A program made the position numbers and the translations under genes. A DNA stretch of 55,213 bases from a virus (taxonomy: Duplodnaviria > Heunggongvirae > Uroviricota > Caudoviricetes), in the IMG/VR virus record IMGVR_UViG_2698536646_000013; one strand, given 5' to 3'. Under the pieces are notes generated by a model. That model made no database searches, was not told the DNA's origin, and saw nothing but the letters and a program-made list of their open reading frames with translations. Shown here piece by piece: positions 3,141-43,887 of the stretch (positions within the stretch are counted from its first letter, which is position 1; each line of letters begins with the position of its first letter).

Positions 3141-3277
3141 GGGATGGGGCAGGTTTTTCCTCTTGCGCATGCAAGGGCGGCTCTGATAATGAACAGTAAT
3201 ATTTTACTGTTGAGCTTATGCTCACTGATCCTGCCGGGCAGGATGTTCAACGGTTCCAATATATCCTGCCCCTTCCG
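3141..3277 (+). ncRNA. Candidate structured non-coding RNA (retron msr-msd-like leader)
   Basis: Inverted repeat gggatggggcagg (3141-3153) / cctgccccttcc (3265-3276) brackets three hairpins at 3162-3175, 3192-3211 and 3228-3244. Ends 20 nt before the next start codon. No ORF. Confidence 0.35.
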
Positions 3278-3296
3278 CTTTTAAAAAGGATCTTTT

Positions 3297-3848
3297 ATGC
3301 ATGACAATATTTGGTTTACATATAAAGCACGTATCCAAGCGCACCATCGACTAGAATGGCTTGAAAAACACTCTCAATTTATCCTCGTTTGGTATGCTAT
3401 ATTGAGTGCGGTACTTTCAATTGTAACGTTGCGATTTCCAAAGGTTCTAGGAGATAATACAGATGTCGTTGCGGCGATACTTTCAGTGGCTCTACTGGGT
3501 ATTTCTCTGATCGTATCTAACCTAGATTTTCGTGGTCGAGCAATAGCCATGAGAAGGAATTATATTGCACTACAGCGACTCTATTTTGACATTACCACCA
3601 GTCAACAGTTATCTCTTGAACAGAAAGAAAAATATTTTAATTTGCTCAATGAGGTTGAGAATCACCGTGACATAGATGATAAAATTTCAAGGGTAACTCA
3701 AGTTGGACTTAAGACGAGGATCCCCACACAAAAAGAAAAAATAATTGTTATTTTATGGATATTACTTCGAATATTTATTACTGCCGCACTTTATATACTC
3801 CCATTAATATATCTTTGGATTGACTATGACTGCAAGCAGAATTTTTAA
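3297..3848 (+). CDS. Membrane protein with three hydrophobic segments (candidate effector of the RT module)
   Basis: 183 aa. Hydrophobic helices FILVWYAILSAVLSIVTL, VVAAILSVALLGISLIVSNL and IIVILWILLRIFITAALYILPLIYLWI. AT-rich codons, overlaps the RT ORF by 29 nt, RBS aaagga. Confidence 0.75.
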   Translation: MHDNIWFTYKARIQAHHRLEWLEKHSQFILVWYAILSAVLSIVTLRFPKVLGDNTDVVAAILSVALLGISLIVSNLDFRGRAIAMRRNYIALQRLYFDITTSQQLSLEQKEKYFNLLNEVENHRDIDDKISRVTQVGLKTRIPTQKEKIIVILWILLRIFITAALYILPLIYLWIDYDCKQNF

Positions 3849-5196
3849 AAAGTCATTCTCGAAAAAAAATCTTCTAAAAGTATACTCTGAAAAAATCAAA
3901 GAATCAGGAGCGATTGGCATAGATCGGATTCGCCCATCAAAACTTGATTTGACAATAAAAAATGAGATCACTTTCATTTTTGAAAAGGTTAATTCTGGCA
4001 ATTACAAATTTACAGCATATAAAGAAAAATTAATATCTAAAGGCGCTAACTCTACACCCAGACAGATTTCCATACCAACTGCTAGGGACAGAATTACTCT
4101 TAGAGCTCTCTGTGAATGCCTTACGGAAATATATCCTAAGTCCAGATTAAAACTACCACATACAGTAATTGACTCATTGAAAGAAGCATTAAACAACAGT
4201 CTATATGCTGAATATGCAAAAATAGATCTTAAAAGTTTCTATCCTTCAATTGAACATAAATTGATAATTAATGCAATAAAAAATAAAATTAGAAAAAAAG
4301 AAATTAGACAGTTAATAACATCATCATTAATCGTGCCTACTGTAAGTGGAACCACAGGAAGCAAAGGTATCCCTAATAATACCAGAGGAGTACCTCAGGG
4401 ATTAGCGATATCAAACATTTTAGCTGAAATATCACTATCTAATTTCGATGATGAAATCAATAAAATGCATGACATATGGTACATGCGATACGTTGATGAC
4501 ATTCTTATTTTAACACCAAAATATCAAGCAACAAAAATAGCTTCTCATATCATTGATAAGCTTCAATCATTAAATTTAAACCCACATCCATTAAATGAAG
4601 AGAACTCAAAATCCAAAGTAGGCAGCTTGGATGAAAGTTTCAACTTTTTGGGCTACCACATAAAAAATCGAGAATTATTGATAAAACATGAGAGCATTCT
4701 TAGATTTGAGTCATCCTTAGCAAAAATTTTTACTGCATATAGACACGCTCTACTACAAGCTAAAAATAAGCGCGATAAAGAACGAGCTGTTGCATATTGT
4801 CAGTGGAAACTAAATCTTAGAATTACGGGATGTGTGTTTGAAGGTAAACGATTGGGATGGGTATCGTACTTCTCACAAATAACGTCAACAGCTCAACTTC
4901 GAGCTGTTAATCATACGATCAATAATCTTATCCGCCGATTCGGCCTTTCATCAGAAATAAAACCAAAGTCTTTGATTAAAACTTTCTATGAACTCCGCAG
5001 GGGTAGAGCGGAGACTTTTAAATACATACCTAACTTTGACAATCTACATATATCTCAGAAACGAGAAATTGTTTCTATGTGGATAGGGAAAGAGAATGAA
5101 AAAAAACTTAGCAATAGTGAAATAGAGAGAAAATTTAAATTTAAAATTGCGAAATCAGTAAAAGAGCTTGAAGAGGACATTTCAGGGATATCATAG
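3820..5196 (+). CDS. Reverse transcriptase (retron-type or defence-associated RT)
   Basis: 458 aa with RT motifs PRQISIPTARDRITLRAL, KIDLKSFYPSI, GVPQGLAISNIL, YMRYVDDILIL and FNFLGYHI, plus an ITG motif in the C-terminal thumb-like region. Very AT-rich. Confidence 0.9.
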   Translation: MTMTASRIFKKSFSKKNLLKVYSEKIKESGAIGIDRIRPSKLDLTIKNEITFIFEKVNSGNYKFTAYKEKLISKGANSTPRQISIPTARDRITLRALCECLTEIYPKSRLKLPHTVIDSLKEALNNSLYAEYAKIDLKSFYPSIEHKLIINAIKNKIRKKEIRQLITSSLIVPTVSGTTGSKGIPNNTRGVPQGLAISNILAEISLSNFDDEINKMHDIWYMRYVDDILILTPKYQATKIASHIIDKLQSLNLNPHPLNEENSKSKVGSLDESFNFLGYHIKNRELLIKHESILRFESSLAKIFTAYRHALLQAKNKRDKERAVAYCQWKLNLRITGCVFEGKRLGWVSYFSQITSTAQLRAVNHTINNLIRRFGLSSEIKPKSLIKTFYELRRGRAETFKYIPNFDNLHISQKREIVSMWIGKENEKKLSNSEIERKFKFKIAKSVKELEEDISGIS

Positions 5197-37032: not shown

Positions 37033-37620
37033 TTTTCCTCACATATGTCATATAGTAAAGGATTATATATACCGTTGTTTTGGACGCTCAAACAGCGAAT
37101 CAGATCAAATAAAACGCACATTTGTTAACATTTACACAAAGTCTGCGTGGGATATTCTGAAAGAATATCCATAATGTGGAGAGAATCTATTGAAGTGCAT
37201 GGTGCCGGGTGCCTCCCGGTGAACAAAATGTTCGTGATACCTGTCGGCGACAGAAAAGGTTAATGGTATCACCCCACCGCACAGGGGGATTCACCATGCA
37301 GGAGTTTTCTTAGCAAACTCACTGCGCGCCCGGCAACTCCCAACCACATAAAATGCGGAGTTTGTGGCATTTATGCATATAACTCGCAGGAATTATCTTA
37401 AAAAACTGATGTCGATCCGGATTAAAAAGAAGCAGGTCATCATCAGATGACTGGAAAAAAGGAAAACAAAAAATACTCATCATACAGTTTTGATTGCAGG
37501 GATGAGCCTGCTATGCACAATATGCAGAATATAAGCAAGATAAAAATATGCAGGCATATTATTTCGGATCTTGTTATTAACACAACCTTTTTAATAATCA
37601 TTTGGCATACAATAAACCAG

Positions 37621-37650
37621 CCCAAAAAGAACCGCCTAAACAGGCGGTTG
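37621..37650 (-). terminator. Rho-independent terminator in the Q-to-lysis intergenic region
   Basis: Stem aaccgcc / ggcggtt, loop taaaca, followed on the minus strand by CTTTTTGGG. Confidence 0.5.
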
Positions 37651-37969
37651 GTCAATACAAAGGATGCTTCGTCTTTATTATAGTAATCTGAGGCGTCGGG
37701 TGTCTTGTATCAGACAACATATTGTCCCGCTAAACAGCGAATTACAAACCACCCTGCAATGATCTCTCATCTCATTTTATATGAGTTGACGACATCAGGA
37801 TAACGCATCATCAGCCCCTGCCAAGAAATATCAAAACTCCCGCCAGCAATGTGTTATCACAATATTGTAAAAAAAACACAGCACCGAAACTATAACTGGT
37901 CTCTGTTATAATTTGGAGCAGAAAGACCAGTTGCCCAACTAGCAGCATTCTCCCCTGCTTTCCTGACGT

Positions 37970-37997
37970 AAAAAAACCGCATTAAGCGGTTTTTTTA
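37970..37997. terminator. Bidirectional rho-independent terminator about 80 bp downstream of Q (tR'-like)
   Basis: A7-aaccgc-attaa-gcggtt-T7: hairpin flanked by an A-run and a T-run, so it can terminate on either strand. Confidence 0.55.
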
Positions 37998-38076
37998 CGA
38001 TGTCCATGTCTGCAATCCGCCTCGCGATACAGCTTTGCGAAGCATAGCAAAATTGAAGCAGTTTATACGTAAGAAA

Positions 38077-38619
38077 TCAAGCCATTTTCTCAGCAAATGA
38101 TTCACGCATGGGAATATATAGGGCATACTCAGCAACAGCTAACCAATTAGCAATCCGTTTTTCGCATGTGCTAAAACACCACTCTGGGTGTGCATCATTT
38201 AGCAATTCAGCCATTTTGCGCTTAGTCATCCCCCGCCCTTCATAGCGTTGCCGGAGAATGCAAATCAATCCTGGATGCTCTGCCAGCACCTCACTTATGA
38301 CTCGATCAATACATAACGCCTCTGCATCAGTACAATGCGCCAGCCAGCTCTTTTGCTTGCCGTTGATCATCTCTCGCAAAAACGCTTCCAGCTCAGCTTT
38401 CTCTATTCCCGCTTTTTTCATTCTGCGCAGGGCTTCATTAATGGCTGTTTTCGTCAGTTTTTTGGATGCCAACAACTGATTGAACATATTCCCTGACCTG
38501 CCACCGCCAATATACGACCAGCGCCCCCACATACGTAGTTTTCCCTGAATCCAGACACTTTCCAGCGTGGTGAGGCGAAGGTGTTCTCCGCTTTTTCCTG
38601 TATTCGTTGGGTAAATCAT
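38077..38619 (-). CDS. Late-gene antitermination protein Q
   Basis: 180 aa, located just upstream of the terminator-rich late leader and lysis genes. Start overlaps the ybcO-like stop (ATGA). Confidence 0.75.
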   Translation of the reverse strand: MIYPTNTGKSGEHLRLTTLESVWIQGKLRMWGRWSYIGGGRSGNMFNQLLASKKLTKTAINEALRRMKKAGIEKAELEAFLREMINGKQKSWLAHCTDAEALCIDRVISEVLAEHPGLICILRQRYEGRGMTKRKMAELLNDAHPEWCFSTCEKRIANWLAVAEYALYIPMRESFAEKMA

Positions 38620-38906
38620 AAATGACCTTTCTTTCTCCAGATTTCTTGTGTGCGAAAAACCCCTTCAGCATGCATCAGGCGCAATTCTTCTTTGGTGTAA
38701 TCGCTGGTTTTTACCCGCCCGTCGATTAGATCGTGGCATGAGCTACAGGCTATCGCCGCCTGCATATCATGTGGTTTTGTCGCTGTTCCGCACGTCCCCG
38801 CCAGCCTGTAATGCGCCAGCACAGAGGTTTCGGGATTGTGATTGCAGTAGCCAGGGATTCTGATCTGGCACATCTGGCCTTTAGCCGCTTTACGTAAATT
38901 CACCAT
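38616..38906 (-). CDS. YbcO-like protein (DUF1364)
   Basis: 96 aa, MVNLRKAAKGQMCQIRIPGYCNHNPETSVLAHYRLAG...ACSSCHD, matches DLP12 YbcO as I recall it. Confidence 0.8.
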   Translation of the reverse strand: MVNLRKAAKGQMCQIRIPGYCNHNPETSVLAHYRLAGTCGTATKPHDMQAAIACSSCHDLIDGRVKTSDYTKEELRLMHAEGVFRTQEIWRKKGHL

Positions 38907-39505
38907 TACGCAAACTCCAGTAGTTGTGCGGCCACATTTTCAACTTCCTCCTGAGAGGAGAATTTACGGAACAGAATCCAGTTCCACAGCACATTCAGTA
39001 CAGATTTATAAACCTGCTGAAACTCGACTTCGTCCATATTCGCAAAAGCGATGGATTTTGCCCGACGCCCACGGCTACCGTCCGGATAAATATGCTCGGT
39101 GTAAAATCCGGCCTGAATGGTTACCCACTCGCGGAAAGCCTCAAACGACTTTAGCAACGCCGTATCCCGGGTTCTACGAGTCGCAACGGTGTTAAGGTAT
39201 TGCTCTGCGGCATCACTCAGGGCTGGCGTGTGTTCCCGACCAACTGATTCGCACAGGTAATCAACGAAACCAGACAGCAGTTCTCGTTCGCGAGGCGTGA
39301 TCGCCCCACCGACCGGAGTCCAGTAATCGAATCCCAGTTGCAGGAGTTTGAAAAAACGCTTGTGGAATGCGTAGTTACGCACACGCTTAAAGTCTGCGTG
39401 TATCCACTCACCTATTTTGATTTGATGCAGAAAATCGCAACTCTCCGGCGTCGCCGGGAGAAGTAAACCAGAAGAGGTTTGTTTGACCAGTTGTATATGC
39501 GCCAT
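38906..39505 (-). CDS. DUF1367-family phage protein
   Basis: 199 aa, MAHIQLVKQTSSGLLLPATPESCDFLHQIKIGEWIHADFK..., a common nin-region protein of lambdoid prophages. Confidence 0.75.
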   Translation of the reverse strand: MAHIQLVKQTSSGLLLPATPESCDFLHQIKIGEWIHADFKRVRNYAFHKRFFKLLQLGFDYWTPVGGAITPRERELLSGFVDYLCESVGREHTPALSDAAEQYLNTVATRRTRDTALLKSFEAFREWVTIQAGFYTEHIYPDGSRGRRAKSIAFANMDEVEFQQVYKSVLNVLWNWILFRKFSSQEEVENVAAQLLEFA

Positions 39506-39785
39506 TTCTCAATCTCTCGATGGCGCAGCGCAGCAGATGCCAGTTGTTCAGGCTGACGAATAAAGTATAAATAAACTGGCTATGGTGTAAAGCCCCACAT
39601 AGCATGAACAAACACTACATATCAAATAGCTGGTACAAGGATAGAAATACGACACTTATTATTAAAAACGATTAGATAAATTACATTTTAATGTTATGCA
39701 AAAGTTCTTTTTTATCATAACATTTCAATAAAAGCATTACAGATGCAATCATCCCGTCATCATCAATTATTTAAGGTGGTTAAAC

Positions 39786-39872
39786 ATGGAAAATAACAAG
39801 TTCGCACATCTCGCTCCTTTTTTATCCGTAATCCTTTTCGCTTGTTGTTTTATATGGGCATTATTTTTATAA
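39786..39872 (+). CDS. Candidate small hydrophobic peptide (28 aa)
   Basis: MENNKFAHLAPFLSVILFACCFIWALFL, strong RBS AAGGTGG 6 nt upstream, in an ~800-bp AT-rich non-coding island. Hand-translated, not in the ORF table. Confidence 0.35.
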   Translation: MENNKFAHLAPFLSVILFACCFIWALFL

Positions 39873-40263
39873 AGTAGCCACATGATAAGTTGCTGGAATC
39901 ATATTTCCCACTCAAGTCATTAACATTTGATAAGATATATCTAAAAGGACGCCTTTACATTATTTATGCGTATATAATTTATTTATATACACAGTAAAGG
40001 TATCCTGGGAAAATATTTATCGTTAAAAAATACATCATAAATAATTAAGCTGAAATTTCAGAACACAACTAATACACACAATAAGGTTCAGTAACAGTAA
40101 TCTATGTGGACTACATCGAGATTTTTTGATTAAACTTTAATAACTTATTCCTAACACACAGAATGCATAAACTAAAAGTAAAACAAATAGTTATACGAAA
40201 AACAACCATATTTATTCTATCTTCTCCTCTAATCAACATATCAATTATGTGTTTCATAACAGC

Positions 40264-40303
40264 TTGACATAACCCTCCAAAAGATGCATTTTTAATGCAT
40301 GTT
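40264..40303 (+). promoter_or_regulatory. Promoter with NsrR-type operator upstream of the yeaR-like gene
   Basis: -35 TTGACA at 40264-40269. AAGATGCATTT-T-TAATGCATGTT at 40281-40303 fits the 11-1-11 NsrR inverted repeat (AAGATGCATTT-N-AAATGCATCTT) at 20 of 22 positions. Confidence 0.5.
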
Positions 40304-40318
40304 TTGGAGGAGGTGGTT

Positions 40319-40657
40319 ATGACACACAAGAGAATTCCTAAAGATTGGGTAATCAAACGCTCAACTCCGTTCTTCACAAAAGAGAACGTACCTTCAGCGT
40401 TATTAACACATCATAATACAGCAGCAGGTGTTTTTGGGCAGTTGTGCGTAATGGAAGGCACTGTAACATATTATGGTTTTACTGATGAGAATGCTACTGA
40501 ACCGGAGATAAAAGTAGTCATTAATGCTGGCGCTTTTGCAACAAGCCCACCACAATACTGGCACCGTGTTGAACTAAGCGATGATGCTCAGTTTAATATT
40601 AACTTTTGGGTCGCTCCAGACTTTTCGGGCGAAAAAGTCTATAGCACCAAAAAATAG
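40319..40657 (+). CDS. YeaR-like protein (DUF1971, TehB-like cupin)
   Basis: 112 aa from MTHKRIPKDW, RBS GGAGGAGGTGG. RSTPFF...AAGVF...LCVMEGTVTYYGF..EP...AGAFA..PPQYWH...FNINFWVAP parallels K-12 YeaR. Confidence 0.85.
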   Translation: MTHKRIPKDWVIKRSTPFFTKENVPSALLTHHNTAAGVFGQLCVMEGTVTYYGFTDENATEPEIKVVINAGAFATSPPQYWHRVELSDDAQFNINFWVAPDFSGEKVYSTKK

Positions 40658-40686
40658 ATGATCATATTAAAAATGCTTTAACAGTC

Positions 40687-40723
40687 AGACCCGGCAGGGC
40701 TATCCCCGACGGGTCTCATTTTT
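40687..40723 (+). terminator. Rho-independent terminator after the yeaR-like gene
   Basis: Stem agacccg / cgggtct with an internal GC-rich loop, followed by CATTTTTG. Confidence 0.6.
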
Positions 40724-41277
40724 GTAAATATATTGGTTCTACATTGACAGGAGACTTCAACCATAAGAAGTAATCTGAATACTTGAGCAATAAATTTACT
40801 TAAGATTAATGAGCGCACCTTGCCGGACAAAGATAAACCAAGGTAACACCTTTTTTCTAGCCAGTATGTAATCAATCAGAAAGCCGCTCCATAAGAACAA
40901 CAGCAAGACAATAAATTGCCATTACAGCCGCAATAGCCAGCGCACATTTGAGAACCAGCACGACAACCCCCTGTATTAGACGCACACCAGTCCTGATAAA
41001 TATGAGGCTGTCTCGTCAGTGATTCAATACAACTATTGGGTATAGTTTCTGTGATTTTATTCTGTAGAAATGGAACACAACAACCAGTCACCACCAGCAC
41101 TTCCTTAAATGCTCTAAGTCAGAAACAAGCCAACATTTTAGTCCGCTTTGAGCGATCTGCAGACATTGCTAGCAGCCTTCTGTGTGAATTCTCAGGGAGC
41201 AGGTCGGCATAGCATCACGTTGAGGCTCTTACCCTACTTGTTCACACCAACCCTAACTCCACAGACTGATTCATAAA

Positions 41278-42279
41278 TTAGTAATCTGCGTGTTTCGCAC
41301 TTTTCAGAAATGCTTTCATATTTTCATTAGGTCGCTCAATTTCGAAGTTACTTCCATATAACTCTTGTAATTTTGGCCATAACTTACTTAATAACCCTCT
41401 CCTGCGATAAAATGGATGTATCCAAACGGTAGATAGGTACGGAGAATTTGCATTTGAATTGTTTATTGTGACCAGCCCAACTAAACATTGTCGATAACCA
41501 CTATTATCCATTGATTGTATTTCTTCGACGAATGGATACGCGATTACATCAGTCCAACCATGATCGGTTGTATCCCATTGCATTCCGTCATGACATTCCT
41601 TCGACTGATAGCGGCGTAAAGCTACACACGCGAGCTTTTGCCAATCTGGAGAATTAATTGTGATCTCTTCATCGTATGACGCGCCTATTGGAGCGGGTAT
41701 TGGTCTGATTAATCCAGCATGGCATTCATCATAGAACTTCATGTTTCCCTCAGAAACGTTGTGTACGTTGGGTTGCTCCATGTGTGCGCCATTCAAAAAT
41801 AGCTCTGATAGTAGTGTATCTACACTGTAATCTTTATTGATTATTGTCGGCTTAGAGTTTTTCTTATTAAGGCCGCGAGTAACGATTTTTTGATCAATGT
41901 TAACAACATGGAATAATCCGTCGGGGAGGCTAGCGAACCACGATGGGGCATCGGACCAGAATAGCATGCCTTTTGTACTTCTTAAGAGTTTAATTAAGTT
42001 AATACAAGCTTCTTCACTAGTCTTGCCGTTGATGCGAAGTATGTTAGGACTAAAGTAATATTCATCCATATCAGGGAATGCAGCTTCGCAAAACTCCTGT
42101 ACATAATTTAGCACCTGGATTCTACAGAGATCATCATAGCTGGTAATAACTAAGGGGGTATCTTCATTACTATTATGATTATCAATAATGCAATCTATAG
42201 CGAGACTTACTGCTTTGCGTATCACTTCAGTTGAATCTAACGACTCTAAAAATTTTGTCTTTCGTGTGCGAATATCCAT
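41278..42279 (-). CDS. Hypothetical protein, possible GNAT-like C-terminus (second gene of AT-rich cargo operon)
   Basis: 333 aa. C-terminal LVGLVTINN...VWIHPFYRRRGLLSKLW loosely resembles GNAT motif A. N-terminal 200 aa have no recognisable family. 15-bp gap to the upstream gene. Confidence 0.7.
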   Translation of the reverse strand: MDIRTRKTKFLESLDSTEVIRKAVSLAIDCIIDNHNSNEDTPLVITSYDDLCRIQVLNYVQEFCEAAFPDMDEYYFSPNILRINGKTSEEACINLIKLLRSTKGMLFWSDAPSWFASLPDGLFHVVNIDQKIVTRGLNKKNSKPTIINKDYSVDTLLSELFLNGAHMEQPNVHNVSEGNMKFYDECHAGLIRPIPAPIGASYDEEITINSPDWQKLACVALRRYQSKECHDGMQWDTTDHGWTDVIAYPFVEEIQSMDNSGYRQCLVGLVTINNSNANSPYLSTVWIHPFYRRRGLLSKLWPKLQELYGSNFEIERPNENMKAFLKSAKHADY

Positions 42280-42294
42280 GTATGACCTGCGCTA

Positions 42295-43317
42295 TTAAAA
42301 TTCATGAATGAACGGTTTGTCATCTGGTTGCAAAATGGTGGTTTTATTCGTTGCTACATTTAAACTGTTGTAGAGCATAATTGCCAGGTTCGATGCATTT
42401 TCAATCAGCGTTTCAAGATCCTGGTCTGTAATCACTACGAGGTTCCCTTCTTTATCCTTTCCACCACGATGCACTAAGTGATTTCGATTGAGGGTTGCCA
42501 ATTCAATAGCTTCTATCGGACAGTCTTTTTGTACTTTTATATCGAATGTAGCTTCATAGCGGTCGATTACCTTTTTAGTGCTATGCCAGCTTGCACTGAT
42601 CAAGTGTTCCTTGATTGACCTGATTAGCTCTCCCCTAATTTTCTCGATGGGTTCACCCTTGAAAGGCAACGCAGCAATATCTTTGCTTACTTTAAATTCA
42701 GTCTTACCTTTTTCTATACAATTGGCTATGTAGACATCATCTTTCTCTATAGAATTAATGAATAGCTCAACATAAAGCGTTTCCAAAGCTGTAATAACAT
42801 TCGTGTAGAGCAAACTAAGCAAGTGGTTTTTTTGCTGTTGTTCAGTTTTATCTTTTGCAAGTTTTTTTATTTTATCGATATTATCAATGAATTTTAAATA
42901 CGGATTACCGGAAGACGTTACAGCGTCGTAGATATCATCATCGTACCAATCATCTATATTATTTGAGTTTCCAGACCAGTCAAAACATTGTGTTTGTAAT
43001 TCATCTACTAATTCCTCAATATACTCAGATTTAACATATTGACCGAAGATGGATTGTAGTTCTTCGCTCGCATCATACGGCCCGCCATATATGTAAGCAT
43101 AGCCACCTTCTCTACTTTCATACGGACAAGCATTTGCCGGATCTTCAAAGTTTTCAAAGAACCAGTTTTTCATTACTTCGAGTTGATCTTTTTTGCTTAT
43201 GTATTTTAAAGATTTTAGTGGAACTTTCTTTCCATTAACCTCGAAAACAATTTTCACGATGTAACGCTCCCTTGTATCAATTGCGCAACTATTATACCAC
43301 AGCGAAATACAGGGCAT
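42295..43317 (-). CDS. Hypothetical protein with HEPN-type RNxxxH motif (first gene of AT-rich cargo operon)
   Basis: 340 aa from MPCISLWYN (ATG 43317, RBS AAGGAGG). C-terminal ...ELATLNRNHLVHRGG... contains R-N-x3-H. AT-rich relative to flanking phage genes. Confidence 0.7.
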   Translation of the reverse strand: MPCISLWYNSCAIDTRERYIVKIVFEVNGKKVPLKSLKYISKKDQLEVMKNWFFENFEDPANACPYESREGGYAYIYGGPYDASEELQSIFGQYVKSEYIEELVDELQTQCFDWSGNSNNIDDWYDDDIYDAVTSSGNPYLKFIDNIDKIKKLAKDKTEQQQKNHLLSLLYTNVITALETLYVELFINSIEKDDVYIANCIEKGKTEFKVSKDIAALPFKGEPIEKIRGELIRSIKEHLISASWHSTKKVIDRYEATFDIKVQKDCPIEAIELATLNRNHLVHRGGKDKEGNLVVITDQDLETLIENASNLAIMLYNSLNVATNKTTILQPDDKPFIHEF

Positions 43318-43455
43318 AACCTGCCTCCTTAAACTAACATACCATGAGCCAGCAATGTCCGCTATTGGCACAAAGCGGACAACCACGCTAGCTCTCCCCT
43401 GTGCCAGAAAAATGTCAATTTACATATGAACTAATGCTCTTTGATCTAGTAACGT

Positions 43456-43887
43456 CTATAAATACCGAAGATTTCCTTGATAAAATGCCAGTACACGTTT
43501 CATAACTTCACTCTTCCGGCACTCGCGACAGATTATGTTCTGACGCCTGTCATAGCGGCGTATTTCTCCGTCTGGTAATGACCAGATAAGGTCAGGATCA
43601 ACCACAACCGTTTTTTTCACCTTTGCCCTGGATAGTTTTTTGCGGGCGTTTTTCCAATCCTTACGAGCCTGTTCAGACGGGAATAACCCATAGCCAGAGT
43701 TGTATACATCGCCACTGGCAACCAACTCTCTGGCAAGAATGCTCATCAGATATCTTGTCGCACCTGTCTTGGCCTCCAGTTGCCTTAACGTCTCGCGCCC
43801 ACTCTGGCGTACCAACTCAACAACCTGCTCCTTAATTTTTTCACGCTCTTCCTGTGTAAAAACTTTTGCCATAAGCGCCTCCGGCAA
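43456..43887 (-). CDS. Hypothetical early-region protein
   Basis: 143 aa, basic, with a Cys-containing C-terminus (ICRECRKSEV). No family recognised. Confidence 0.6.
   Translation of the reverse strand: MPEALMAKVFTQEEREKIKEQVVELVRQSGRETLRQLEAKTGATRYLMSILARELVASGDVYNSGYGLFPSEQARKDWKNARKKLSRAKVKKTVVVDPDLIWSLPDGEIRRYDRRQNIICRECRKSEVMKRVLAFYQGNLRYL

What the first reader, a model, noticed from the sequence alone, without database searches (positions are those of the whole stretch)
39506..40263. AT-rich ~0.8-kb non-coding island containing a 28-codon hydrophobic ORF with a strong RBS
Between the DUF1367 gene and the yeaR-like gene no ORF of 60 aa or more exists. At 39786-39872 a plus-strand ORF encodes MENNKFAHLAPFLSVILFACCFIWALFL preceded by AAGGTGG. 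A single-helix hydrophobic peptide like this could be a small membrane toxin or regulator (type I toxin-like), or a leader peptide.
Basis: seen in the sequence. Interest (0 to 1): 0.4.

Follow-up and report, generated by a model that had tools for sequence, protein, structure and literature searches.

The report
Unannotated 28-residue prophage membrane peptide gene
The 28-codon ORF is a real, conserved but never-annotated small gene for a one-helix membrane peptide, carried by Rac/Qin-type prophages in about a fifth of E. coli genomes at the edge of a swap-in island of defence and toxin genes; what it does is untested.

Summary
Window 39506-40263 is 26-36% GC against about 50% in the flanks. 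It contains no long ORF of its own, and 39786-39872 (+) encodes MENNKFAHLAPFLSVILFACCFIWALFL behind AAGGTGG.

The island has two parts.

(1) 39506-39872 is a conserved module. It holds the leader and a promoter-like site of the divergent DUF1367-to-Q operon, plus a self-contained cassette of about 215 bp (39655-39872): an invariant promoter-like block, a stem-loop, a variable leader, the SD and the sORF.

- All 126 copies found through the ORF's first codons, and all 94 readable copies found through the upstream block alone, keep exactly 28 codons.
- 17 of 30 variable sites are third codon positions (p = 0.007). pN/pS is 0.2-0.4.
- Homology between prophage classes stops at the stop codon. Beyond it lie exchangeable cargoes: DUF1971 here, and IteAS, hokD-relBE, AbiH-like or PD-Lambda-2-like genes elsewhere.

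(2) 39873-40263 is the upstream region of the DUF1971 (YeaR-like) moron. Its promoter carries a near-consensus NsrR operator.

The sORF matches no protein or RNA family and is unannotated in RefSeq. The leader-peptide reading is rejected. A type I toxin reading is neither excluded nor supported strongly, although a candidate antisense promoter and terminator exist. Best reading: a small prophage inner-membrane protein gene. This is a new member of a known kind, of moderate interest.

The parts
39786..39872 (+). sORF: 28 codons plus TAA, encoding MENNKFAHLAPFLSVILFACCFIWALFL. The N-terminus (residues 1-9) is polar. Residues 10-28 form a hydrophobic helix that runs to the C-terminus.
   Evidence: Searches give the sequence. 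All 126 copies and 94 of 94 readable copies are intact. 17 of 30 variable sites are at codon position 3, p = 0.007, and pN/pS is 0.2-0.4. Mean Kyte-Doolittle hydropathy is 2.46 for residues 10-28.
39773..39779 (+). Shine-Dalgarno AAGGTGG, six bases before the ATG.
   Evidence: It is AAGGTG(A/G) in most classes, AAAGTGAG in the CFT073-type class and AAAGCGAG in four copies.
39655..39698 (+). Near-invariant block CTTATTATTAAAAnCGnTTAGAnAAATTAnATTTTAATGTTATG. It contains the best plus-strand promoter candidate: TTATTA (39659-39664), a 17-nt spacer, then TACATT (39682-39687).
   Evidence: The block is 89-95% identical between classes, against about 50% for the neighbouring leader. An exact pattern scan found 92 viral contigs. 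The promoter-like pair is present in 155 of 156 copies. The block is retained in the otherwise unrelated locus L105.
39691..39723 (+). Conserved inverted repeat or stem-loop ATGTTATG-N17-CATAACAT. The apical part varies but stays self-complementary.
   Evidence: (repeat I1) and the folds; 82% of cells are paired against 27-51% in the slid controls. The changes G-C to G-U and U-A to A-U keep the pairs.
39724..39772 (+). Variable leader between the stem-loop and the SD.
   Evidence: Only 48-56% identical between classes.
39766..39792 (-). Candidate antisense promoter. The -35 TTTCCA lies over the sORF start codon, and the -10 is AATAAT with a 15-nt spacer. This is the weak version found in the window's class.
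   Evidence: In other classes it is TTTCCA-16-TATGAT or CATAAT. The consensus scan flags it in L002 and in CFT073.
39643..39670 (-). Small minus-strand hairpin CGUUU-UUAAUAAU-AAGUG followed by UCGUAUUUCU. It is terminator-like and weak here, with only one G-C pair.
   Evidence: It is flagged as terminator-like in L002 and L162, where it reads CGCUU...AAGCG followed by a U-run. Two pairs covary (GC/GU/AU and CG/UG/UA), with one break in 21 sequences. In L105 there is no U-run after it.
39564..39591 (-). Promoter-like site TTTACA-16-TATACT, upstream of the DUF1367 gene and so of the DUF1367-YbcO-Q-like operon.
   Evidence: the same site is found in three classes. It lies in an invariant stretch of alignment A1.
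39506..39563 (-). Conserved leader of the DUF1367 gene. Other prophages have the same leader in front of a different first gene, a 92-aa ORF beginning MAHDTKLH.
39873..40263 (+). AT-rich upstream region that belongs to the DUF1971 cargo gene, not to the sORF module.
   Evidence: It always travels with the DUF1971 gene, in 467 genomes. It is unrelated to the sequence after the sORF in other classes. It is about 95% identical to phage 666R9 apart from a 56-bp indel.
40264..40303 (+). Just outside the finding: -35 TTGACA (40264-40269) and an 11-1-11 NsrR-type palindrome AAGATGCATTT-T-TAATGCATGTT (40281-40303), ahead of the DUF1971 gene.
   Evidence: One search gives the sequence. Twenty of 22 half-site positions are identical to the ytfE NsrR site listed in PMC5320621, Table 4.

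Best explanation
The ORF is a real protein-coding small gene.

Shown:
- Together with an invariant promoter-like block, a stem-loop and a variable leader, it forms a self-contained cassette of about 215 bp (39655-39872).
- The cassette sits in Rac/Qin-type lambdoid prophages of Escherichia and Shigella.
- It is transcribed away from the DUF1367-to-Q operon and points into a hypervariable cargo island, which lies between the cassette and the DUF977/replication genes.
- The peptide sequence is under purifying selection, and the cassette is a unit in its own right.

Inferred:
- The peptide has a polar N-terminus (MENNK.AH) and a 19-residue hydrophobic helix running to its C-terminus. It should therefore insert in the inner membrane as a tail-anchored single-pass protein with its N-terminus in the cytoplasm.
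- The invariant residues P11, L13, S14, C21 and W24 suggest that it works through specific helix-helix contact with a membrane protein of the host or of an incoming phage, in the way known small membrane regulators and exclusion factors do. They argue against unspecific membrane damage.
- It is likely expressed from its own promoter in the lysogen, like a moron.

The promoter, translation, membrane location and function are inferences, not demonstrations. The right half of the island is simply the promoter-upstream region of the neighbouring DUF1971 moron.
For: Conservation of the frame:
- All 126 copies retrieved through the first 13 codons keep 28 codons and the same stop.
- All 94 readable copies retrieved through the upstream block alone, with no constraint on the ORF, are also intact.
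- No other frame on either strand stays open across all 28 distinct alleles; one other frame lacks stops in 16 of them, but not in the window's own allele.

Selection:
- There are 17 DNA alleles.
- 17 of 30 variable sites are third codon positions (binomial p = 0.007).
- There are 20 synonymous and 17 mostly conservative non-synonymous changes, and pN/pS is 0.22-0.43.

Regional pattern of identity between classes:
- ORF 80-84%.
- SD-to-ATG stretch 76-82%.
- Leader 48-56%.
- Sequence after the stop codon 24-36%, which is no better than random.

Unit character:
- In L105 only the block, stem-loop, leader and sORF are retained, in unrelated flanks.
- The distance from block to ATG is constant at 129-131 nt.

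Prevalence: the sORF region matches in 1175 of 5426 complete E. coli genomes. Among 185,579 species representatives it is found only in Shigella flexneri and E. ruysiae.

Hydrophobic helix.

Context as an exchangeable cargo island.
Against: - There is no direct evidence of transcription or translation.
- The best plus-strand promoter candidate is weak (TTATTA-17-TACATT, PWM score about 4.8, top 2% of positions). The tool's own scan finds no plus-strand promoter.
- The SD is degraded to AAAGTGAG or AAAGCGAG in the commonest class.
- The cassette has no terminator of its own.
- All the sequences come from closely related prophages of one genus, so the number of independent substitutions is small.
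- The peptide has no homologue of known function.
Confidence: 0.7

Rival explanations
1. Type I toxin-antitoxin-like cassette. On this reading the peptide is a membrane-damaging toxin. Its mRNA leader is covered by a cis-antisense RNA of about 110 nt that starts from a promoter over the sORF start codon and ends at the small hairpin in the invariant block.
For: - The peptide is short and hydrophobic.
- There is a minus-strand promoter-like site, TTTCCA-16-TATGAT or CATAAT. Its -10 lies at the same position in four otherwise divergent leaders.
- A minus-strand hairpin plus U-run lies about 110 nt further on. Its substitutions keep the pairs on the minus strand only.
- The neighbours are often toxin-antitoxin genes. 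hokD is convergent in 92 of 149 copies, and relBE is also found.
Against: - There is no match to any known toxin family or antitoxin RNA.
- In the window's own class the antisense promoter has a 15-nt spacer and a low score of 2.6, and the hairpin has one G-C pair. The sORF is nevertheless intact there and has the strongest SD.
- In L105 the hairpin has no U-run.
- The hairpin loop is invariant, which suggests a DNA-level signal rather than a terminator.
- The -35 is fixed by the coding sequence, so its conservation says nothing.
- The predicted mRNA fold does not clearly sequester the SD (z = -1.06).
- The helix has no charged or amphipathic character.
Confidence: 0.2
2. The ORF is incidental. 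On this reading the conservation reflects DNA or RNA signals for the phage early-right/Q operon that overlap it on the other strand: a terminator, a promoter, an operator or a recombination anchor for cargo exchange.
For: - The module does carry conserved minus-strand signals and an invariant block with an inverted repeat.
- The sORF marks the exact boundary of homology used in cargo exchange.
Against: - The excess of third-position changes, the conservative replacements, and the invariant start, stop and length in at least 220 copies are the signature of a translated frame.
- The leader next to the ORF is much less conserved than the ORF.
- No alternative frame is conserved.
Confidence: 0.1
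3. Leader peptide or upstream ORF that controls a downstream gene by attenuation or translational coupling.
For: In the window the next gene (DUF1971) is on the same strand, 446 bases downstream.
Against: - The sequence after the stop codon is unrelated in four junction classes, and the next gene is usually convergent: hokD, iteS.
- DUF1971 has its own -35 and an NsrR-type operator.
- There is no run of regulatory codons, and no conserved alternative hairpins follow the ORF.
Confidence: 0.02

Closest known systems
Small single-pass inner-membrane proteins of E. coli found by ribosome profiling and RBS models, including the prophage-borne YnfS (Qin, 29 aa)
   Same: It is fewer than 50 residues, has one hydrophobic helix, has an SD and lies in an intergenic position missed by gene callers. 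YnfS is also prophage-encoded, is 29 aa long and has a Cys pair next to a C-terminal hydrophobic stretch.
   Different: There is no sequence similarity to YnfS or to any family. The sORF is absent from K-12, where the gene rem occupies the place of the module. Translation has not been shown.
Phage morons: independently transcribed, AT-rich extra genes inserted between conserved lambdoid genes, such as lambda bor and lom
   Same: It is an AT-rich compact unit with its own promoter-like block, it lies between conserved modules, and it is oriented against the surrounding phage operon.
   Different: It is far smaller than described morons and has no terminator of its own. It is itself the conserved edge of a variable island rather than the variable element.
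Type I toxin-antitoxin loci of enterobacteria (hok/sok, ldr/rdl, ibs/sib, tisB/istR, shoB/ohsC, zor/orz, dinQ/agrB)
   Same: It encodes a short hydrophobic peptide. A candidate antisense promoter lies in the translation-initiation region, and there is a candidate terminator. It is often next to hokD and relBE.
   Different: It has no family or Rfam match. The antisense signals are weak or absent in two classes. The helix has no charged or amphipathic character, and toxicity is unknown.
Hotspots of anti-phage systems in prophages and satellites (P2/P4 hotspots; PMC9122126)
   Same: Conserved flanks frame a site where unrelated defence or toxin cargoes replace each other. Here these are IteAS, an AbiH-like protein, a PD-Lambda-2_C-like protein and hokD-relBE.
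   Different: The phage type is different (Rac/Qin lambdoid, between the DUF977 gene and the Q operon). I did not find this hotspot or its small flanking gene described.

Membership tests
Type I toxin-antitoxin system | Small (under 60 aa) hydrophobic toxin peptide | tested here: met
   The peptide is 28 aa. Residues 10-28 have a mean Kyte-Doolittle hydropathy of 2.46.
Type I toxin-antitoxin system | Antisense RNA gene, with its own promoter and terminator, complementary to the toxin mRNA | tested here: inconclusive
   A promoter-like and a terminator-like site lie on the minus strand in L002 and CFT073, and the hairpin covaries. Both are weak in the window's class, and L105 has no U-run. No transcript data are available.
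Type I toxin-antitoxin system | Sequence membership of a known toxin family (Hok, Ldr, Ibs, TisB, ShoB, ZorO, DinQ) or of a known antitoxin RNA family | tested here: not met
   No significant hit in Pfam, NCBIfam or PHROGs. Rfam gave no match at E-value up to 1 in 38500-41500.
Type I toxin-antitoxin system | Toxicity of the peptide on overexpression, neutralised by the RNA | not testable with these tools
   This needs an experiment.
Attenuation leader peptide | A conserved, co-oriented downstream operon, with alternative terminator and antiterminator structures after the ORF | tested here: not met
   Homology ends at the stop codon. There are four unrelated junction classes, and the next gene is mostly convergent.
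Attenuation leader peptide | A run of codons for the regulating amino acid | tested here: not met
   There are five scattered Phe codons and no run.
Bacterial small membrane proteins (50 aa or fewer, single transmembrane helix) | A conserved ORF of 50 codons or fewer, with an RBS and one predicted transmembrane helix | tested here: met
Bacterial small membrane proteins (50 aa or fewer, single transmembrane helix) | Demonstrated translation and membrane association | not testable with these tools
   A Ribo-seq study of CFT073 exists (bioRxiv 10.64898/2026.09.28.754932), but its list of sORFs (File S2) is not held.
Phage moron | An extra unit between conserved phage genes, with deviating base composition | tested here: met
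   GC is 0.30 against about 0.50. The unit lies between the DUF977/cargo region and the DUF1367 gene, and it is portable.
Phage moron | Its own promoter and terminator | tested here: inconclusive
   Only a moderate promoter candidate lies inside the invariant block. The cassette has no terminator, and a hairpin supplied by the cargo follows in the hokD and iteS contexts.
Bacterial lipoprotein signal peptide | A lipobox [LVI][ASTVI][GAS]C with a conserved +1 Cys, followed by a mature domain | tested here: not met
   The residues before the invariant C21 are FAC, FVL, VFC or FAG in different alleles. Only 7-8 hydrophobic residues would remain after cleavage. The Lp6.6 and Rz-like hits are insignificant (E = 0.08-0.24).

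The most novel reading that the evidence does not exclude
The cassette may be a previously unrecognised type I-like toxin/antisense-RNA pair, or another small addiction or exclusion module. On this reading it forms the fixed edge of a defence-gene exchange hotspot in Rac/Qin-type prophages. Its retention would then be what pins the recombination boundary exactly at its stop codon, and its transcript, reading into the cargo, would also act antisense on convergent cargo genes such as hokD.
Probability: 0.2. Interest if true: 0.55.

Novelty: new member of a known kind. Interest (0 to 1): 0.4.

Why it matters
This gene is present in roughly one in five sequenced E. coli genomes, yet it is absent from K-12. 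It is therefore invisible to annotation pipelines, to a 15-billion-sequence protein collection, and to the K-12-based small-protein surveys.

It also marks, to the base, one border of a lambdoid-prophage island where defence and toxin systems are exchanged. That makes it a practical anchor for mining the island.

If the peptide proves to be an exclusion factor or a toxin, it would add a very small, very common player to prophage-host biology. If it is only a neutral membrane peptide, the finding is a routine annotation gap.

Tried and rejected
- An exact look-up of five alleles in the 15-billion-protein collection found nothing.
- Pfam, NCBIfam and PHROGs gave only insignificant hits: Sec20, Lp6.6 and Rz-like.
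- Rfam gave no match at E-value up to 1.
- tblastn found only four Rac-like E. coli phages. In the plasmid set it found two records, both chromosome-sized E. coli sequences.
- A full-text search for the peptide strings found no paper. Searches for IteAS and for a lambdoid-prophage defence hotspot found no description of this hotspot.

**Leads that could not be closed**
- The CFT073 Ribo-seq preprint could not be checked for this sORF, because its supplementary tables are not held.

**Readings rejected**
- Leader peptide, lipoprotein signal peptide and truncated remnant of a longer gene. The stop codon lies inside the conserved part and is identical in all contexts.
- The direct repeat CTTTTTTATC as a sign of a trans-antisense RNA. 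Its first copy lies in the variable loop.
- A long-range helix predicted for the putative antisense RNA. It is seen in two classes but not in the window, and the z-scores are -0.3 to -2.8.
- A structured leader for the DUF1367 gene (z = -0.27).

**Error corrected**
- My first structure string for the stem-loop was one column out of register. It was corrected.

Full report
**Where the window comes from**

The region matches E. coli chromosomes at 99-100% identity. It lies in a Rac/Qin-type lambdoid prophage whose other genes include trkG, sieB, kilR, racC and recE. On the minus strand the order is:
- a DUF977 gene (43456-43887);
- two unnamed genes (42295-43386 and 41278-42279);
- the finding;
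- a DUF1367 gene (38906-39505);
- a YbcO-type gene;
- a DUF1133/Q-like antiterminator gene;
- lysis genes.

The DUF1971 (YeaR-like) gene at 40319-40657 is on the plus strand.

**Checking the observation**

GC falls to 0.26-0.36 across the interval, against about 0.50 in the DUF1367 gene.

No ORF of 60 aa or more lies inside the interval. Two mechanical ORFs overlap its ends and the real flanking genes.

RefSeq annotates nothing here in the genomes listed. A 28-codon ORF alone is not remarkable, because one search lists about a dozen ORFs of 20-38 aa in the same stretch. The test therefore has to be conservation.

**The island has two parts**

Diverged relatives (76-78% identity) match only query positions 1-368, that is 39506-39873. 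That stretch ends at the sORF stop codon. An alignment of five prophage classes shows the ATG, the frame and the TAA conserved, with homology lost immediately afterwards.

The right half, 39873-40318, is found only together with the DUF1971 gene, in 467 genomes and two allele groups. It is that gene's upstream region.

**Is the sORF coding?**

A degenerate pattern for the first 13 codons retrieved 120 viral contigs. With the window and the loci fetched earlier, that makes 126 copies, all with exactly 28 codons. They comprise 13 peptide alleles and 17 DNA alleles.

To remove ascertainment through the ORF itself, I scanned with the invariant upstream block alone (92 contigs; 96 loci held in all). 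All 94 readable copies have the intact 28-codon ORF, 129-131 bases from the block.

The substitution pattern is that of a translated frame:
- Of the 30 variable sites, 17 are third codon positions (binomial p = 0.007).
- There are 20 synonymous and 17 non-synonymous changes. The latter are mostly V/I/L/A/F/C exchanges within the helix.
- Pairwise pN/pS is 0.22-0.43.
- No other frame on either strand stays open across all 28 distinct alleles; one other frame lacks stops in 16 of them, but not in the window's own allele.

Identity between classes varies by region:

| Region | Identity between classes |
|---|---|
| ORF | 80-84% |
| Leader beside the ORF | 48-56% |
| After the stop codon | 24-36% |

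This is the signature of purifying selection on a peptide. The limit of the evidence is that all copies come from related prophages of one genus.

**Distribution**

- The sORF region matches in 1175 of 5426 complete E. coli genomes.
- Among one genome per species for 185,579 species, only Shigella flexneri and Escherichia ruysiae carry it.
- K-12 lacks it. In Qin the gene rem occupies the place of the module between hokD and ydfU. This explains why K-12 small-protein surveys never met it.
- The peptide is in no protein collection, family or paper text that I could search.

**Anatomy of the conserved module**

Upstream of the sORF lies the divergent DUF1367 gene, 272-280 bp away in 68 of 107 copies. 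In the other 39 a different first gene is found, a 92-aa ORF starting MAHDTKLH followed by a YdfU/DUF968 gene. That gene is preceded by a closely similar leader and the same promoter-like site, TTTACA-16-TATACT (39591-39564, minus strand).

The most divergent copy, L105, keeps only the equivalent of 39655-39872 and has unrelated flanks on both sides. The sORF therefore belongs to a portable cassette of about 215 bp:
- A near-invariant 44-bp block (39655-39698). It holds the best plus-strand promoter candidate, TTATTA-17-TA(C/A)ATT, present in 155 of 156 copies but only moderate in score.
- An inverted repeat ATGTTATG...CATAACAT (39691-39723). Its pairs are kept through G-C/G-U and U-A/A-U changes: 82% of cells are paired, against 27-51% in the slid controls.
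- A poorly conserved leader.
- The SD and the ORF.

I cannot decide whether the repeat is a 5' stem-loop of the mRNA or an operator over the start site. The two promoter candidates place the transcription start either inside its 5' arm or in its loop.

**Minus-strand signals inside the cassette**

In the iteAS-context locus (L002) and in CFT073 (L162) the consensus scan flags two minus-strand features:
- A promoter-like site whose -35 (TTTCCA) lies over the sORF start codon. Its -10 (TATGAT or CATAAT) lies just upstream of the SD.
- About 110 nt further, a small hairpin plus U-run, CGCUU-UUAAUAAU-AAGCG followed by UUGUAUUUUU.

The hairpin's two variable pairs change as GC/GU/AU and CG/UG/UA, with one break in 21 sequences. 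That pattern fits the minus strand only.

This could be a cis-antisense RNA against the sORF leader, which would give type I toxin-antitoxin architecture. It could equally be a terminator ahead of the Q operon, with the promoter match being chance. Several points weigh against the antisense reading:
- The -35 is fixed by the coding sequence.
- The hairpin loop is invariant and coincides with the plus-strand -35.
- L105 has no U-run.
- In the window's own class the spacer is 15 nt and the hairpin has a single G-C pair, yet the sORF is intact there with the strongest SD.
- Folds of the putative antisense RNA and of the mRNA are not clearly better than shuffled sequence in the window.

**The neighbourhood is an exchange site for cargo**

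Directly after the stop codon there are four unrelated junction sequences. Within 1.5 kb there are more than 30 different contexts. The cargoes seen are:
- the DUF1971 gene plus a pair with weak GNAT and HEPN/RES N-terminal-domain hits (here);
- IteA/IteS, annotated as anti-phage;
- hokD-relE-relB, with hokD tail-to-tail with the sORF in 92 of 149 copies;
- PD-Lambda-2_C-like, AbiH-like and PDC-candidate proteins;
- insertion sequences.

The far border of the island is the DUF977 gene.

**Interpretation**

The leader-peptide idea fails, because nothing downstream is conserved and the next gene is usually convergent.

A lipoprotein signal peptide fails on the lipobox. A truncated-gene remnant fails because the stop codon is inside the conserved part.

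The reading best supported is a small tail-anchored inner-membrane protein gene, probably expressed on its own in the lysogen. The invariant residues P11, L13, S14, C21 and W24 suggest a specific partner. Translation, location and function are inferences.

I put the type I toxin reading at about 0.2 and the reading that the ORF is incidental at about 0.1.

A direct test may already exist. CFT073 carries the sORF at NC_004431.1 1338563-1338649, minus strand. A 2026 preprint reports Ribo-seq of CFT073 with 15 intergenic membrane sORFs, six of them new. Coordinates are printed only for two others, and the tables are not held.

**Right-hand end of the island**

Just beyond the finding's end lies TTGACA (40264-40269). 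An 11-1-11 palindrome, AAGATGCATTT-T-TAATGCATGTT (40281-40303), follows. It matches 20 of 22 half-site positions of the ytfE NsrR site listed in PMC5320621, Table 4. The chromosomal yeaR gene is a known NsrR target according to the same paper. The prophage copy is therefore probably nitric-oxide responsive. This is a sequence match only.

**Verdict**

This is a genuine, widespread, unannotated small gene of a familiar kind, a small membrane protein or moron. It has an interesting position as the fixed edge of a defence and toxin cargo island, and a possible but unproven antisense partner.

Noticed in passing
window 40264-40303: A -35 TTGACA is followed by a near-consensus NsrR 11-1-11 operator, AAGATGCATTT-T-TAATGCATGTT, in front of the prophage DUF1971 (YeaR-like) gene. 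Twenty of 22 half-site positions match the ytfE site in PMC5320621. The prophage moron is probably nitric-oxide or nitrate responsive, like chromosomal yeaR.
   Followed up: partly
window 39506-39591 (minus strand): The promoter-like site TTTACA-16-TATACT and a 60-nt leader are conserved in front of the DUF1367 gene. Other prophages have the same promoter-like site and a closely similar leader in front of a different first gene, a 92-aa ORF starting MAHDTKLH followed by a YdfU/DUF968 gene. The exchange junction lies at the start codon. This suggests an internal promoter for the Q operon.
   Followed up: partly
window 41278-43386 (minus strand): Two adjacent unnamed cargo genes of 333 aa and 363 aa. 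The first has a weak GNAT acetyltransferase hit and the second a weak HEPN/RES N-terminal-domain hit. Neither matches PADLOC. They are a candidate toxin-antitoxin or defence pair in the same island.
   Followed up: partly
L162 (CFT073) 3522-3870; 92 of 149 copies in other loci: hokD lies tail-to-tail with the sORF, with about 105 nt between the two stop codons. The hok terminator hairpin lies about 20 nt after the sORF stop. A sORF transcript that reads through would be antisense to hokD.
   Followed up: partly
L006 (K-12 MG1655 Qin) 3152-3620: K-12 has the gene rem where other strains have the sORF module, so K-12 lacks this small gene. K-12's own prophage small protein YnfS (29 aa, also with a Cys pair and a hydrophobic tail) lies elsewhere in Qin and is unrelated in sequence.
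   Followed up: yes
L105 (IMGVR_UViG_2547132270_000010) about 640-865: This is the most divergent copy of the cassette. It has many synonymous changes and sits in an unrelated context, with DNA about 81-84% identical to an E. coli tyrosine integrase gene immediately downstream of the sORF. Its host species was not identified.
   Followed up: partly
window 37033-38076: About 1 kb without a long ORF lies between the Q-like gene and the TolA-like genes. Phage vB_EcoS-683R6 carries tRNA-Gly and tRNA-Thr at the corresponding place, but ARAGORN finds no tRNA in the window.
   Followed up: partly
hits H18 and H36 (strains PK8566 and SCZE5), within the equivalent of 39506-40263: IS1 copies are inserted inside the AT-rich island in some strains.
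   Followed up: no
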